Shown here piece by piece: positions 4,303-58,232 of a DNA stretch of 64,000 nucleotides. Source of the stretch: a virus (Duplodnaviria; Caudoviricetes); the IMG/VR virus record IMGVR_UViG_3300014208_000023, positions 1 through 64,000 of that record; one strand, 5' to 3'. Under the pieces are notes generated by a model. That model was not told the origin of the DNA, searched no databases, and saw only the letters and a list, made by a program, of their open reading frames with translations. The stretch's first letter is position 1, and each line of letters begins with the position of its first letter. A program made the translations under genes and the position numbers.

Positions 4303-4320
4303 TTGTGTCTTTCCAATTAG

Positions 4321-4393
4321 CGTCCCCGGCAGGACTTGAACCTGCGACCGATCGGTTAGAAACCGATTGCTCTATCCACTGAGCTACAGGGAC
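4321..4393 (-). tRNA. trnR: tRNA-Arg(UCU)
   Basis: cloverleaf GTCCCTG..CGGGGAC, AC arm ATCGG TT-TCT-AA CCGAT, T loop TTCAAGT; CCA not encoded. Confidence 0.95.
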
Positions 4394-6869: not shown

Positions 6870-7118
6870 TTATAGTTGCGACTGTTCTTCTTCTACTGGC
6901 GGGTAGTTCTGAACAATAAATTTCTTGAGGTCGGAAGGAGTAACCATACCATCGGCGGTCTTATTTTCCTTGCCGAAACGGATGGCTTCGGCCGACCTAC
7001 CAGTCACCTTTTCAAGGGTTAGGATTGTTTTCTTTTCATCCCTTGGGTTTTTTAGAACAACGTTGTTCTTGCCAATCATGTATTCCCAAGTTTCGTTATC
7101 GACCACAATCTTACGCAT
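6870..7118 (-). CDS. hypothetical protein
   Basis: ORF in run. Confidence 0.65.
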   Translation of the reverse strand: MRKIVVDNETWEYMIGKNNVVLKNPRDEKKTILTLEKVTGRSAEAIRFGKENKTADGMVTPSDLKKFIVQNYPPVEEEQSQL

Positions 7119-7132
7119 TACTTTTTAATTAC

Positions 7133-7348
7133 CTAATAGAGGTGAGGGTTGTTTCTTTTATCGCAAATTGAGTAACGGTATTTTTTACTATCTACAAATA
7201 GTTTTAATTTGTCCATAGTATGAGGGCCAGTTGGGCAATAGGCCACTTGCTGTTCTCGTGCTCCATATACGAAATGTATTCCATATCTTGAACCACAAGC
7301 AGAGCATAGCCTATCATAATTTCGATCTATGATATTCGGTCTTCCCAT
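7133..7348 (-). CDS. hypothetical protein
   Basis: ORF with GAGGG RBS downstream of a sigma70 promoter. Confidence 0.65.
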   Translation of the reverse strand: MGRPNIIDRNYDRLCSACGSRYGIHFVYGAREQQVAYCPTGPHTMDKLKLFVDSKKYRYSICDKRNNPHLY

Positions 7349-28687: not shown

Positions 28688-28966
28688 TCAAAGTATGCAT
28701 ACTTTCCATGAAATTAACTGCGTCCAAGAAAAAATATATGATGACCTCACTAGTACGCGATCATATATTTCCCTTGGGCGACTTGCAATCAACAATTTGA
28801 TGTGGAATCGAACCACAGTGTTAGTGATATTCACCCACCCATTACCAGTAGCCAATTGTTGACTGCCATTATCTAAATAATTGCGCCCTACTATTAGCTC
28901 CAACCAATAGCGGGACGACTTGCAATATAATACATGGAGGCGCATAGATGGATTTGAACCATACAT
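28688..28966 (-). CDS. hypothetical protein
   Basis: ORF; start overlaps a T-arm-like hairpin. Confidence 0.4.
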   Translation of the reverse strand: MYGSNPSMRLHVLYCKSSRYWLELIVGRNYLDNGSQQLATGNGWVNITNTVVRFHIKLLIASRPREIYDRVLVRSSYIFSWTQLISWKVCIL

Positions 28967-28988
28967 TATCCTGCCTGGTATGCTAGTA

Positions 28989-29255
28989 TTATGTTGCCAT
29001 AACTTTACATTTCGACGCTGTTCCTTTAGGAAGTTTAATTCCTATTTGATCTAGGAGATGAGCAGGCTTGCTTCCACAAAAGCCATGCCAGTTTTCTCTA
29101 TTAAGCCTATATATAGCTTTATAGTTAACCAGGCAAACTTCTTTGTTTAAGTTAAACCATTCCCATGTTGATCTAAACCAACCATTAAAGGATGGAATGC
29201 AACCGTCCTTACGTCTGGCAGGACAACATTTGTTTTCAGAAATCATTGTTACCAA
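28989..29255 (-). CDS. hypothetical protein
   Basis: ORF in run. Confidence 0.55.
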   Translation of the reverse strand: MVTMISENKCCPARRKDGCIPSFNGWFRSTWEWFNLNKEVCLVNYKAIYRLNRENWHGFCGSKPAHLLDQIGIKLPKGTASKCKVMAT

Positions 29256-38700: not shown

Positions 38701-38865
38701 TGTCAATAGGTATGTATCATTTCAACCTAAAGACTCAGCATTCTACTTACATCCCTGTATCCTACCTGATGTAATCAAATAGGCCGGGGATAAAGACTAG
38801 AAACTACTATCTGACTTATAGTTTCCATTACCGGCAAATTGTATTTCAATTCAGACCGGATTGAT

Positions 38866-39141
38866 TTATTCCGCTGCCTCTTCCGGGATCGGAAGGCGCA
38901 GGCTATTGAGCAGAGCGTTGCGATCCTCCTTGCCTTCCGGCATAGGCCTTCCAGCGAGAATCCAAGCCTTGCGCTTGACGTGATAGTTGCGATGCCCGGT
39001 GAATCGGGCTTCGTTGCAGTTCTCGGCATTGATAGCCTTCTCTGCACGCACACGAGTGAAGCCCTTTTTGGCAGCACTCAAGTTCTGACGCTTGATGCCC
39101 AACTGGATCTTACTCTTCGTTCCGCTTCGTCCCCTAGACAT
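38866..39141 (-). CDS. basic hypothetical protein
   Basis: Arg/Lys-rich ORF with AAGGAG RBS. Confidence 0.7.
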   Translation of the reverse strand: MSRGRSGTKSKIQLGIKRQNLSAAKKGFTRVRAEKAINAENCNEARFTGHRNYHVKRKAWILAGRPMPEGKEDRNALLNSLRLPIPEEAAE

Positions 39142-39180
39142 GTTCGTTCTCCTTATTTTGTTGTGATATATCTAATCATA

Positions 39181-39597
39181 ATGCATAAAAAATCTAGAGA
39201 CAGACTCCATCCCATGATGGTTAGCGCCAGACAAACTTATAATCACTCCTATAAGAAGAAAGATAAAAATTGCTGTGATTTTGAAACCTTCTATCGGTTA
39301 TCACAACTACCTTGCCATTACTGTGGGAGAAACCCATTTAGAATTTACAATATAGGAAATTGTAGGGAAGGTAGCTATTATACGACCGATGAGCAGAAGG
39401 AGAATGGTAATTTTGTTTATAACGGAATTGACCGAATAGACAGTACGAAAAGTCATACTTCAGATAATTTAGTTCCGTGTTGTTGGGTATGCAACCGAGC
39501 GAAGGCAAATAAGCCTGTAGAAGAATTTCTTGAATGGATTGAGTTAGTATATAATTATACTAAACTAACTCATCGAACATCCGACACAACCGTTTAA
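39181..39597 (+). CDS. HNH-like homing endonuclease
   Basis: PCHYCG..NGIDRIDSTKSHTSDNLVPCCWVCNRAK; start reassigned to 39181 after TGATATATC motif. Confidence 0.85.
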   Translation: MHKKSRDRLHPMMVSARQTYNHSYKKKDKNCCDFETFYRLSQLPCHYCGRNPFRIYNIGNCREGSYYTTDEQKENGNFVYNGIDRIDSTKSHTSDNLVPCCWVCNRAKANKPVEEFLEWIELVYNYTKLTHRTSDTTV

Positions 39598-39829: not shown

Positions 39830-40061
39830 TTGAATTGTGACTGCTCATCGAGTTAATGGTATCTCGAAGCTCTCTCATTGGCTTGCCAGGCGGACCCTCA
39901 AACCAACAGAAGTCTCCACGCCCATCATCGTATTGAGATATGACTCCATCGGATACCGCCTTCTTAAGCAGCGGTTCGGGGTCTTCTTTCCACGGACCAT
40001 GTATTTCGTATTTTACAATACGACTCTTCGATGGTCCGAATTGTTTATTACGCTTACTCAT
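39756..40061 (-). CDS. hypothetical protein
   Basis: ORF in run. Confidence 0.55.
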   Translation of the reverse strand: MSKRNKQFGPSKSRIVKYEIHGPWKEDPEPLLKKAVSDGVISQYDDGRGDFCWFEGPPGKPMRELRDTINSMSSHNSNDCDICDLISNFPSGTKVSRKRHT

Positions 40062-40570
40062 TTTATTAATCTATGAATACATGAATAGGTTGCGCATATA
40101 CATGGCTGAACAGTTAGGCCATCGCCGCCATCAGGGTCGGGCACATGAGGAACTGAAACAACCTTGCCATCTAGTCTAACGCATTCATCTAACTCATGCA
40201 ACAAGGCAAAGGCAATTAGATTGCGGACAGCACACACAACGTCTAGCTCTAGCATATCTTCTGGGTTGATATACTTCGCCGTGCTTAGCCTTACCCAATT
40301 GTAAGGAGGACAATTAGACTTGACGCTGAAGTAAATCTTCAGCATCACACCAGAGTTATGCTTGTTACATTCAATGAGGATGTCCATTAGCGATGGATAC
40401 TTTTTAATATCCACACGTCCAATCACGGAGATTGCTTCGTCCTGCGTCATCCGTTTTACCTTCAATGTTTTATGTCTATCGCCGGAACGGATAAAGGTGC
40501 GATCGACACGATTAAGAGAGTAAAGAATAATTGAGGAATCGAACCTCTGATCCGTCGATCTTGTTGCCAA
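40058..40570 (-). CDS. hypothetical protein (start uncertain)
   Basis: ORF; LLHELDE motif. Confidence 0.6.
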   Translation of the reverse strand: MATRSTDQRFDSSIILYSLNRVDRTFIRSGDRHKTLKVKRMTQDEAISVIGRVDIKKYPSLMDILIECNKHNSGVMLKIYFSVKSNCPPYNWVRLSTAKYINPEDMLELDVVCAVRNLIAFALLHELDECVRLDGKVVSVPHVPDPDGGDGLTVQPCICATYSCIHRLIK

Positions 40571-40620
40571 ACTAAAAGGGAATCGAACCCTATCCTAGCC
40601 AGGTATCCTTTACTCTCAGC
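40571..40620 (-). pseudogene. truncated tRNA-like RNA (T-arm plus weak acceptor)
   Basis: AGGG TTCGATT CCCT; no D-arm. Confidence 0.4.
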
Positions 40621-40719
40621 GCCCATGGTAGGAGTCGAACCTACAACGACCCGGAAAGACTACGCACCTTCTACGGTGGATAATCCGGCCAGTATGTCTG
40701 CCAATTGCATCACACGGGC
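40620..40719 (-). ncRNA. tRNA-Leu-like RNA with elongated anticodon arm
   Basis: GCCCGTG..CATGGGC acceptor, Leu-type D-loop AATTGGCAGAC, T-arm GTAGG TTCGACT CCTAC; ~38-nt AC arm ending CACC GTAGAA GGTG. Confidence 0.7.
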
Positions 40720-40726
40720 GGAAGGA

Positions 40727-41071
40727 TCAACCTTCGTGAATCGTATCGCCGGCCTTCACGTCAGAAGCAACAATGTTCTTTCCATTGCGCATGACCGTGA
40801 ATGCTCCACTGATAGGAAACTGATTCTCCTCCAGCGGCGTGCCTTCCTTACCAGGAGTAAAGCCCGCCGCCTTACATGCACGTCGAAGCTCTCGCGTCTT
40901 GCCCTTGAGTGACTTTTCAAATGCCATTTTCTTTTTATTCCTTTCCGCTATCTCAGCGGCCAGATATTCCCTAGCGGCACAATCGCCACAATAAGGATCG
41001 CCACATCCATCACACGCACTCACGGCTCGCCTCCGTTTGCTTCCCATACTGATAGCGTAGACTTGACCCAA
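40727..41071 (-). CDS. hypothetical zinc-binding protein
   Basis: CDGCGDPYCGDC. Confidence 0.6.
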   Translation of the reverse strand: MGQVYAISMGSKRRRAVSACDGCGDPYCGDCAAREYLAAEIAERNKKKMAFEKSLKGKTRELRRACKAAGFTPGKEGTPLEENQFPISGAFTVMRNGKNIVASDVKAGDTIHEG

Positions 41072-57816: not shown

Positions 57817-57966
57817 CCTCCTAATTCGGGCCTGTAACAACTTCTGTGTAGCACATGGGTTTAGATTTTACGAGCTATCAGAGGAGACTCGAACCCCTCC
57901 AGCCATGGACTTCACATTATATGCTACAAACCCGAATTAGAAGGGGGAAGGTAGTTAGTCTTCCCC
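57817..57966 (-). repeat. GC-hairpin + CCTTCT long-stem element
   Basis: GGGGAAG..CTTCCCC then CCTTCTAATTCGGG/CCCGAATTAGGAGG; loop holds TATAAT and a T-arm. Confidence 0.8.
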
Positions 57967-58232
57967 GATCCTTTCTTACTGATAGAGCCAGGCATTGACT
58001 GCCCGGCGAACCTCCGTGCATGCAGCCCGAACATCGAAGGCATTGATCGTGTGCTCCATCACAAGAGGAGGAGGAATCTTGCCCTCCTTCTTGAGAGACA
58101 CCACAACCTCACCCACATACGGATTCTTCGGAATCATTCGACTCTCCTACTTGAACCAGCGTCTAGCTCTTGCTCGGAATGCACGAATCGCTCGTTTCAG
58201 GCAAAGAGAACAATGCCTGGCGTCTCCTTCCT

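What the first reader, a model, noticed from the sequence alone, without database searches (positions are those of the whole stretch)
40620..40719. tRNA-Leu-like RNA with the anticodon arm stretched to about 15 bp
Seen: perfect acceptor, Leu-type D-loop and canonical T-arm, but a short variable region. The anticodon arm is CCG-GATTAT-C-CACC GTAGAA GGTG-C-GTAGTC-TTTC-CGG with TAG in the terminal loop. It cannot fit the ribosome as is. Inference: a synthetase/EF-Tu/anticodon-nuclease decoy, or a pre-tRNA with a removable ~20-nt insert; such inserts are typical of archaea and eukaryotes, not bacteria.
Basis: partly seen in the sequence, partly recalled or inferred. Interest (0 to 1): 0.65.

Follow-up and report, generated by a model that had tools for sequence, protein, structure and literature searches.

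The report
Rod-armed, non-decoding tRNA look-alike in phage
A 428-kb phage carries a gene shaped like a leucine tRNA whose codon-reading loop has been replaced by a stiff 15-base-pair rod. It almost certainly cannot read codons and is probably just cut out of the message by the cell's tRNA-trimming enzymes; whether it is kept by selection could not be tested.

Summary
On the minus strand (40719 to 40620) lies a 100-nt tRNA-shaped sequence. It has a 7-bp acceptor stem, a Leu-type D arm, a canonical T arm and a 6-nt variable region. In place of the anticodon arm there is a 15-bp rod tipped by the 6-nt loop GUAGAA. ARAGORN and Rfam miss it only because of about 26 extra bases.

Without those bases its body is 72-74% identical to 77-nt phage tRNA-Leu genes and 70-73% to this phage's own tRNA-Leu genes. 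No single excision restores a normal anticodon loop, there is no bulge-helix-bulge motif, and the phage has no splicing endonuclease. The "removable insert" reading is therefore not supported.

The discriminator is G, not the A73 that leucylation needs. The element lies 7 nt after a stop codon, as the phage's real tRNAs do, and a second tRNA-like fold follows it.

My best reading (about 0.5) is a non-decoding tRNA-derived RNA that is excised by RNase P and 3' processing, which also cuts the polycistronic message.

Conservation is untested, because the two contigs that appear to hold close relatives could not be fetched.

This scan has noted similar rod-armed tRNA look-alikes in several other phage genomes. 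Published parallels are the Lak megaphage "enigmatic tRNA introns" and T4 rnaC/rnaD.

The parts
40620..40719 (-). The whole tRNA-shaped RNA: 100 nt including discriminator G at 40620. The next base is C and there is no encoded CCA.
   Evidence: Sequence; fold; alignment to phage tRNA-Leu genes. It ends in discriminator + C, as most of this phage's 16 tRNAs do.
40713..40719 (-). Acceptor stem, 5' strand (GCCCGTG). It pairs with 40621-40627 (CATGGGC).
   Evidence: 7 bp with one G-U. The stem is conserved across the 77-nt tRNA-Leu family.
40694..40710 (-). D arm: a 3-bp stem ATG/CAT plus a C.A mismatch, with loop AATTGGCAG containing G18G19.
   Evidence: The layout matches the IMG/VR tRNA-Leu family. 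All 3 stem pairs show changes on both sides across that family.
40651..40692 (-). Extended 'anticodon' arm. It consists of basal CTGG/CCGG (4 bp), a 2x2 loop, GGATTAT/GTAGTCT (7 bp, three of them G-U), a C.C mismatch, CACC/GGTG (4 bp) and the hexaloop GTAGAA (40669-40674).
   Evidence: Minimum-free-energy and centroid folds; pair probabilities 0.84-1.0. The basal stem matches the family's anticodon stem, TCGG(C)/(T)CCGA.
40652..40677 (-). The 26 nt that the 77-nt relatives lack. This is MAFFT's placement of the gap; the exact insertion borders are ambiguous.
   Evidence: Alignment A1. The sequence occurs only once in the 428-kb genome.
40628..40644 (-). T arm GTAGG-TTCGACT-CCTAC.
   Evidence: Invariant in the family. 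Together with the 3' acceptor strand it is an exact 24-nt match to tRNAs in 11 viral contigs.
40721..40735 (-). Small leader hairpin GAAGG-TTGAT-CCTTC. The stop codon of the upstream gene lies in its loop, and it ends 1 nt before the acceptor stem.
   Evidence: Seen in the fold of the flanked sequence. Its function is inferred only: it could serve as a 3' cap for the upstream message after RNase P cleavage.
40516..40617 (-). A second structured RNA, 2 nt downstream. A 14-bp closing stem encloses two T-arm-like hairpins (GGGTTCGATTCCC and GAGGTTCGATTCCTC) and a 4-bp hairpin capped by a tetraloop.
   Evidence: Fold of -36.5 kcal/mol, z = -4.7, 0 of 200 shuffles as stable. ARAGORN (default settings) and Rfam do not call it.
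40727..41071 (-). Upstream gene (ORF of 114 aa; the database gene call is 98 aa). Its stop codon lies 7 nt before the element.
   Evidence: No Pfam or PHROG family.
40058..40450 (-). Downstream gene of 130 aa. It starts about 65 nt after the second structure.
   Evidence: P0003 is 100% identical; P0004 is 88% identical and lies on a 3.9-kb JGI contig.

Best explanation
This is a non-decoding RNA derived from a tRNA-Leu-type gene.

About 26 extra bases have turned the 7-nt anticodon loop into a continuation of the anticodon stem. The RNA keeps a complete tRNA 'top half' and elbow (acceptor stem, T arm, D arm with G18G19), but carries a 15-bp rod with a 6-nt tip.

It has no promoter or terminator of its own. 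It is transcribed inside a leftward polycistronic message, 7 nt after the stop codon of one gene.

Inferred steps:
- Host RNase P cuts at its 5' end.
- 3' trimming and CCA addition finish the other end; the phage has its own CCA-type enzyme.
- A stable L-shaped RNA of about 100 nt is released, and the flanking messages are separated in the same act, as happens for the phage's genuine tRNAs.
- The RNA is not charged (G73) and does not enter the ribosome.

What is shown: the sequence, the fold, homology to tRNA-Leu genes, the layout, and the lack of any splice-compatible junction. What is inferred: expression, cleavage, stability and the absence of charging.
For: - The cloverleaf with rod is the minimum-free-energy and centroid structure, with pair probabilities of 0.84-1.0.
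- The body is 72-74% identical to 77-nt phage tRNA-Leu genes and 70-73% to the phage's own tRNA-Leu genes, against 53-69% to its other tRNAs. The covariance model of the element hits only itself, tRNA-Thr and tRNA-Leu(TAG) in the genome.
- Removing about 25 nt in silico restores ARAGORN detection, so the tRNA body is intact.
- The D stem is kept through compensatory changes relative to the family.
- All three non-Watson-Crick pairs of the 7-bp middle helix are G-U and none is A.C. This fits RNA-level pairing on this strand.
- There is no promoter-like site on the minus strand near the element and no terminator-like site in 39.5-42.5 kb.
- Genuine tRNAs and the tmRNA of this window sit 6-15 nt after upstream ORF stops. 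The element sits 7 nt after one.
- It ends in discriminator + C like most of the phage's tRNAs, and the phage encodes a CCA-type nucleotidyltransferase.
- Engineered 'tRNA scaffolds' that carry a hairpin in place of the anticodon loop are processed precisely and accumulate stably in E. coli (PMC3753655).
Against: - No relative of this locus could be examined, so there is no evidence that the rod, or even the element, is conserved.
- There are no expression data.
- A processing signal alone would not need a D arm or an elbow, and a plain hairpin would do as a separator. Punctuation may therefore be a by-product rather than the selected function.
- The host is unknown, so the host's RNase P and identity rules are assumed to be those of ordinary bacteria.
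Confidence: 0.5

Rival explanations
1. Inert relic. A once-functional phage tRNA gene was disabled by a small palindromic insertion, perhaps a repair or mobile-element footprint. It may still be processed, but it has no selected function and will decay.
For: - The phage already has tRNA-Leu(TAG) and tRNA-Leu(CAA), so a third Leu-type gene is dispensable.
- The insert is unique in the genome.
- No homologue with a similar insert was found in IMG/VR, GenBank phages or GTDB genomes.
- The apical loop (G-TAG-AA) resembles the anticodon loop of Leu(TAG) relatives, as a recent rearrangement might leave it.
- The loss of A73 also fits a gene no longer under selection for charging.
Against: - Every stem of the body is intact although the body is about 26% diverged from any known tRNA.
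- The rod is not a pristine palindrome. Its departures are three G-U pairs and one C.C, with no A.C. That is weakly non-random: P is about 0.125 if transitions were neutral.
- This phage and other phages keep many non-decoding tRNA look-alikes (PMC6784885).
Confidence: 0.22
2. The released RNA is the point. It would be a trans-acting tRNA mimic: a decoy or sponge for a tRNA-binding host factor (a tRNA-targeting defence nuclease, LeuRS or a modification enzyme), or a natural 'tRNA scaffold' that displays the rod to a phage protein.
For: - The full elbow and the LeuRS hinge determinants (A15, G18G19, U48) are kept, although they are not needed for mere cleavage (PMC9976931).
- The specific A73-to-G73 change would block charging while leaving the rest of the tRNA body, including those hinge determinants, intact.
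- Phage tRNAs are known to counter tRNA-cleaving defences (PMC10264068, PMC11464382, PMC11555353).
- The phage carries RtcB, which indicates pressure from RNA-cleaving defences (PMC7824862).
Against: - The 6-nt loop without U33 is a poor copy of an anticodon loop.
- No partner protein could be identified; the neighbouring genes have no known family.
- Complementary targets of the tip are not enriched in the genome.
- No Ro60 (TROVE domain) is found, so this is not a Y-RNA-type system.
Confidence: 0.17
3. Intron-containing pre-tRNA. Proteins cut out the insert and RtcB rejoins the halves into a working tRNA.
For: - RtcB is encoded by the phage.
- Oversize phage tRNA genes described as intron-bearing exist in Lak megaphages (PMC6784885).
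- Other IMG/VR tRNA arrays hold similar oversize genes (L133, L113).
- ARAGORN at lowered thresholds proposes a 28-nt 'intron'.
Against: - No contiguous excision gives a canonical anticodon loop (0 of 38).
- There is no bulge-helix-bulge motif.
- No EndA-type endonuclease or archease is found in the genome.
- The insert is far too small for a group I ribozyme.
- G73 does not fit Leu identity.
Confidence: 0.05

Closest known systems
Oversize tRNA genes with 'enigmatic introns' in Lak megaphages (Devoto et al. 2019, PMC6784885)
   Same: Both are huge-phage tRNA-type genes that bacterial tRNA finders miss because of an insert in the anticodon region. The insert is too small to self-splice and its function is unknown.
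   Different: The Lak cases were typed as tRNAs with an anticodon once the predicted intron was removed. Here no excision restores a canonical loop. The Lak inserts are conserved across cohorts; conservation here is untested.
Phage T4 small stable RNAs rnaC and rnaD (species 1 and 2)
   Same: Non-tRNA stable RNAs sit in tandem directly behind a tRNA gene on the same strand. rnaC ends in a T arm (CCGGGTTCGAATCCCGG) and has long internal rods. Their roles are unknown (PMC3014915). In our phage the rod-armed RNA is likewise followed after 2 nt by a second structured RNA.
   Different: There is no sequence similarity. The T4 RNAs are longer (119 and 139 nt) and lack a clean cloverleaf. Ours is an otherwise complete tRNA body.
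Engineered 'tRNA scaffold' RNAs (Ponchon and Dardel approach; PMC3753655)
   Same: The architecture is identical: acceptor, T and D arms are kept, and the anticodon stem-loop is replaced by a longer hairpin. These constructs are processed by the cell's tRNA enzymes and accumulate stably.
   Different: They are man-made and show only what such an RNA can do in E. coli. They are not a natural family.
tRNA-like processing signals: plant mitochondrial t-elements (PMC1920247; not read here), MALAT1/mascRNA and mitochondrial tRNA punctuation (from my own knowledge)
   Same: A tRNA-shaped fold lies next to a coding region, and cutting by RNase P/Z defines the ends of the message.
   Different: Those are organellar or nuclear systems. 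Cleavage is not shown here, and t-elements usually lack a full elbow.
77-nt phage tRNA-Leu(CAA/TAG) genes with a short variable arm (IMG/VR loci L001-L011)
   Same: These are the closest sequence relatives of the body: 72-74% identical, with the same D loop (AATTGG.A), the same C/G13.A22 mismatch and an identical T arm and 3' acceptor strand.
   Different: They have a 7-nt anticodon loop, A73 and an encoded CCA. The element has the 26-nt extension, G73 and no CCA.

Membership tests
Canonical tRNA (Rfam RF00005; ARAGORN) | 7-bp acceptor stem; T arm with T-loop consensus; D loop with G18G19 | tested here: met
Canonical tRNA (Rfam RF00005; ARAGORN) | 5-bp anticodon stem with a 7-nt loop, U33 and purine 37 | tested here: not met
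   The arm has 15 bp and the 6-nt loop GUAGAA.
Canonical tRNA (Rfam RF00005; ARAGORN) | Reaches the detection thresholds of the standard tools | tested here: not met
   No ARAGORN call at default settings. No Rfam match at gathering score. Only tRNA-Sec at 16.4 bits, E = 2.6.
tRNA-Leu (bacterial identity set) | A73 discriminator; A15-U48; G18G19; A20a | tested here: not met
   The hinge elements are present, but the discriminator is G. G73 is an antideterminant for LeuRS (PMC9976931).
Protein-spliced (archaeal/eukaryal type) intron-containing tRNA | Bulge-helix-bulge motif; excision leaves a canonical anticodon loop | tested here: not met
   The internal loops are 2x2 and 1x1. 0 of 38 deletion products have a Y-U-NNN-R loop.
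Protein-spliced (archaeal/eukaryal type) intron-containing tRNA | Splicing endonuclease (PF01974) and ligase available | tested here: inconclusive
   No EndA domain in the phage and no archease. RtcB is present. The host genome is unknown.
Group I intron in a tRNA anticodon loop | Ribozyme core of roughly 200 nt or more | tested here: not met
   The insert is about 26 nt, and Rfam reports no intron family.
Phage oversize tRNA-frame RNAs (Lak 'enigmatic introns', T4 rnaC/rnaD type) | Phage-encoded, co-oriented with tRNA and other genes; intact acceptor and T arm; oversize middle part | tested here: met
   Comparable genes in L133, L113 and L099. T4 locus.
Phage oversize tRNA-frame RNAs (Lak 'enigmatic introns', T4 rnaC/rnaD type) | Insert conserved among related phages; RNA accumulates in infection | not testable with these tools
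No transcript data.
Y RNA / YrlA-type tRNA mimic with Ro60 | Ro60 (TROVE) partner; ends of the RNA in the long stem; Rfam match | tested here: not met
   No TROVE domain and no Rfam hit. The ends lie in the acceptor stem, not in the rod.
tRNA-like RNA-processing signal (t-element / punctuation) | tRNA-like fold abutting a coding region on the same strand | tested here: met
   7 nt after the stop codon. Real tRNAs and the tmRNA sit 6-15 nt after upstream stops. No promoter or terminator of its own.
tRNA-like RNA-processing signal (t-element / punctuation) | Cleavage by RNase P or RNase Z at its borders | not testable with these tools
   Needs an in vitro cleavage assay or RNA-end mapping.

The most novel reading that the evidence does not exclude
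The element belongs to a largely undescribed class of selected, non-decoding 'tRNA-frame' RNAs of large phages. In this class the tRNA top half serves as a processing and stability module, and the rod in place of the anticodon is the working part, for example as a decoy for tRNA-targeting immunity or as a handle for a phage protein. Leu- and Ala-type frames would be favoured because their synthetases ignore the anticodon. A still bolder variant is protein-dependent (RtcB-based) removal of mini-inserts in phage tRNAs.
Probability: 0.2. Interest if true: 0.75.

Novelty: new variant of a known kind. Interest (0 to 1): 0.45.

Why it matters
Large phages carry many tRNA genes, and annotation pipelines silently drop those that do not fit the cloverleaf. 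This case shows a complete tRNA body whose decoding end has been converted into a rod. It lies in a genome that holds several other non-decoding tRNA look-alikes.

If such RNAs are conserved and expressed, phages would be using the tRNA shape for purposes other than decoding: as a ticket into the host's processing and stability machinery, to punctuate long messages, or to distract tRNA-binding defence or translation factors.

If it is only a broken gene, it is still a useful warning that 'tRNA introns' reported in phages need not be spliceable.

Tried and rejected
1. Relatives of the locus.
- blastn against 50,697 GenBank phages found nothing beyond T-arm hits.
- Protein-anchored scans of IMG/VR with both flanking genes, the 181-aa gene and RtcB gave no syntenic relative. 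L012 (52% identity) has no tRNA-like element.
- The metagenome scan returned only an unrelated 148-kb contig, L015.
- DNA patterns for the 5' half and for 'D loop + long gap + T arm' found nothing in IMG/VR or GTDB genomes.

2. A triple-T-loop pattern returned more than 120 loci, none related to this phage. Most hits are explained by the anticodon loops (TTCRANT) of type II tRNAs.

3. The covariance model of the element, run on 15 large IMG/VR records, found only ordinary tRNAs. Five of those records do not share this phage's tmRNA region.

4. Spliceable intron: rejected.

5. Repeated or mobile mini-element: the insert is unique in the genome.

6. Antisense regulator: complements of the tip occur at chance frequency.

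7. Y RNA with Ro60: rejected.

8. Phage LeuRS partner: no class I LeuRS-type domain was found.

9. A dedicated promoter or terminator: none.

10. A coding reading: the 54-aa ORF 40462-40626 starts inside the acceptor stem and is absent from the database gene calls.

Full report
**What the window is.** The window is the first 64 kb of a complete 428,320-bp IMG/VR phage genome with direct terminal repeats. ARAGORN finds 16 tRNA genes in the genome, all on the minus strand. Five tRNAs and a tmRNA lie in this window.

**The observation.** Read on the minus strand from 40719 to 40620, the sequence has these parts:
- a 7-bp acceptor stem (GCCCGTG/CATGGGC, one G-U);
- U8;
- a D arm (ATG/CAT plus a C.A mismatch, loop AATTGGCAG with G18G19);
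- a long arm;
- a 6-nt variable region;
- a canonical T arm (GTAGG-TTCGACT-CCTAC);
- discriminator G.

The minimum-free-energy and centroid structures are this cloverleaf (-38.9 kcal/mol, z = -2.8). The long arm consists of CTGG/CCGG, a 2x2 loop, GGATTAT/GTAGTCT (three G-U pairs), a C.C mismatch, CACC/GGTG and the hexaloop GTAGAA. That is 15 bp, with pair probabilities of 0.84-1.0.

ARAGORN at default settings, ARAGORN with its intron option at default thresholds, and Rfam at gathering thresholds all miss it. At E <= 10 only a 16-bit tRNA-Sec match appears.

**It is not a chance fold.**
- The 24-nt T-arm plus acceptor string matches real tRNA genes exactly in 11 viral contigs.
- Deleting about 25 nt in silico makes ARAGORN call a tRNA at default settings.
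- A strict acceptor + T-arm descriptor finds 15 sites on the minus strand of the genome: 13 known tRNAs, this element and one more. It finds only 2 on the plus strand.
- Five G-U pairs and the T loop fit only the minus strand.

**What it derives from.** Aligned to 77-nt tRNA-Leu(CAA/TAG) genes from IMG/VR tRNA arrays, the element matches end to end except for 26 extra bases inside the anticodon region.
- The body is 72-74% identical to those genes and 70-73% to the phage's own two tRNA-Leu genes, against 53-69% to its other tRNAs.
- A covariance model of the element finds only itself, tRNA-Thr and tRNA-Leu(TAG) in the genome.
- The family's anticodon stem, TCGG(C)/(T)CCGA, survives as the basal CTGG(C)/(T)CCGG.
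- The D stem differs from the relatives by compensatory changes at all three pairs.
- The tip G-TAG-AA resembles the cTTAGAAg loop of the Leu(TAG) relatives, but it is one base short and lacks U33.
- The relatives have A73 and an encoded CCA. The element has G73 followed by C, the ending style of most tRNAs of this phage.

**Can the insert be removed?** I enumerated every contiguous deletion of 15-35 nt. None yields a 7-nt loop of the form Y32-U33-NNN-R37 on a 5-bp stem in tRNA geometry (0 of 38 candidates). The internal loops are symmetric (2x2 and 1x1), not a bulge-helix-bulge motif. The genome has no EndA-type splicing endonuclease and no archease. It does have RtcB, which jumbo phages commonly carry for RNA repair (PMC7824862). 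The insert is an order of magnitude too small for a group I intron. The pre-tRNA reading is therefore unlikely.

**Can it be charged or decode?** An arm about 10 bp too long cannot bridge the decoding centre and the peptidyl-transferase centre; this follows from established ribosome geometry. In E. coli, tRNA-Leu identity rests on A73 and the D/T hinge, not on the anticodon or the variable arm. Variants lacking the anticodon arm are still charged, and G73 is an antideterminant for LeuRS (PMC9976931). The element keeps the hinge (A15, G18G19, U48) but has G73. Leucylation is therefore unlikely, and the other G73 systems known to me read the anticodon. This is inference. The phage has no LeuRS-type synthetase of its own.

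**Context.**
- The stop codon of a 114-aa ORF (40727-41071) lies 7 nt upstream, inside the loop of a small hairpin.
- Two nucleotides downstream begins a second, strongly structured RNA (40617-40516; z = -4.7). A 14-bp closing stem encloses two T-arm-like hairpins and a tetraloop hairpin.
- A 130-aa gene starts about 65 nt further on.
- There is no promoter-like site on the minus strand near the element and no terminator-like site in the scanned region.
- The genuine tRNAs and the tmRNA of this window are wedged between same-strand ORFs in the same way, 6-15 nt after upstream stops. In this phage, excision of a tRNA necessarily cuts the message.
- The phage encodes a CCA-type nucleotidyltransferase.
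- It has no Ro60, so this is not a Y-RNA system.

**Most likely mechanism (confidence about 0.5).** The element is a tRNA-derived RNA that no longer decodes. Because its top half and elbow are intact, RNase P and the 3'-end machinery should cut it out of the polycistronic transcript. That separates the flanking messages and releases a stable, uncharged, L-shaped RNA with a rod. Engineered tRNA scaffolds of exactly this design are processed and accumulate in E. coli (PMC3753655). The sequence, fold, homology and layout are shown here. Expression, cleavage and stability are inferred.

**Rivals.**
- An inert, recently disabled tRNA gene (0.22). The phage does not need it and no conserved homologue was found. 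Against this, all stems are intact and the rod's imperfections are G-U pairs.
- A trans-acting mimic or natural scaffold (0.17). The elbow and LeuRS hinge are kept, A73 has changed specifically to G73, and phage tRNAs are known counter-defence tools (PMC10264068, PMC11464382, PMC11555353). Against this, the tip is a poor anticodon-loop mimic, there is no identifiable partner, and antisense targets are not enriched.
- A spliced pre-tRNA (0.05).

**Comparison with what is known.** The closest published parallels are:
- the oversize tRNA genes with 'enigmatic introns' of Lak megaphages (PMC6784885);
- T4 rnaC and rnaD, two stable RNAs of unknown role that sit in tandem right behind tRNA-Arg (PMC3014915). 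rnaC ends in a T arm and has long rods.

In my own sample of IMG/VR loci I found further oversize tRNA-frame genes. Five lie in tandem in L133 (262-937), and their inserts share a hairpin followed by ACAGCAA. Single cases lie in L113 (97-204) and L099 (5063-5171).

Earlier notes of this scan report rod-armed or anticodon-less tRNA look-alikes in several other phage genomes, and sealed-anticodon tRNA look-alikes in this same genome. I used them as leads to the two papers, not as evidence.

**Limits.** The key test, conservation of the rod in relatives, could not be run. All other searches for homologues were empty.

**Verdict.** It is best seen as a new variant of the little-studied phage 'tRNA-frame' RNAs. 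The intron idea is not supported, and the decoy idea remains open. Interest is moderate (0.45) because selection and expression are unproven and similar objects have been reported.

Noticed in passing
window 40516-40617 (-): A 102-nt structured RNA lies 2 nt after the element. A 14-bp closing stem encloses two T-arm-like hairpins and a GACG-capped hairpin (z = -4.7). It is not a cloverleaf and neither ARAGORN (default settings) nor Rfam calls it. A region with a similar layout (closing stem, small hairpin, T arm, 3-nt linker) lies at about 28790-28870.
   Followed up: partly
window 57875-57985 (-): This is the only other unannotated strict tRNA 'top half' in the genome: acceptor stem CTATCAG/CTGATAG plus a T arm. 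It wraps 70 nt that include a GGGGAAGG...CCTTCCCC hairpin of the repeated separator type.
   Followed up: no
window 28935-29020 (-); genome 251175 and 371985 (-): Further T-arm motifs (GGTTCRAnTCC) lie outside annotated tRNAs, with acceptor-like closing stems and non-canonical middles.
   Followed up: no
whole genome: Only 3 of the 16 tRNA genes encode a full CCA. Nine end in discriminator + C and are then followed mostly by TA, and two end in discriminator + CC. Two 'tRNA-???' genes (371499, 371895) have CTTCGG in place of an anticodon loop.
   Followed up: partly
window: The tRNAs and the tmRNA are scattered singly between same-strand ORFs with gaps of only 6-17 nt (for example tRNA-Arg 4320-4393 and tmRNA 23012-23399). 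This is a punctuation-like layout rather than one tRNA array.
   Followed up: partly
L133:262-937 (-) (IMGVR_UViG_3300014562_000073): Five oversize (97-128 nt) tRNA-frame genes lie in tandem next to a normal tRNA array. Their inserts share a hairpin (..CATG-loop-..TG..) followed by ACAGCAA, which suggests a common, possibly mobile or enzyme-recognised, insert.
   Followed up: partly
L001-L011 (IMG/VR tRNA arrays): These arrays hold 77-nt tRNA genes with Leu anticodons (CAA, TAG) but a short variable arm, unlike bacterial type II tRNA-Leu. They have A73 and an encoded CCA.
   Followed up: no
L021:~7090-7200 (+): A tRNA-Ser(CGA)-like gene has a variable region of about 34 nt, too long for ARAGORN. 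Several loci show a similar 'second T loop' that is really a TTCGAAT anticodon loop.
   Followed up: no
window 38839-39597 (+): This opposite-strand ORF has a C-terminal CHYCG...CCWVCNRAK motif that looks HNH-like by eye. Pfam gives no match at E <= 0.01.
   Followed up: partly
genome 425323-426450 (-) and 234675-235067 (-): The phage encodes RtcB RNA ligase (432 bits) and a CCA-type nucleotidyltransferase domain inside a 565-aa frame. No archease, EndA, Ro60 or LeuRS-type domain was found.
   Followed up: partly
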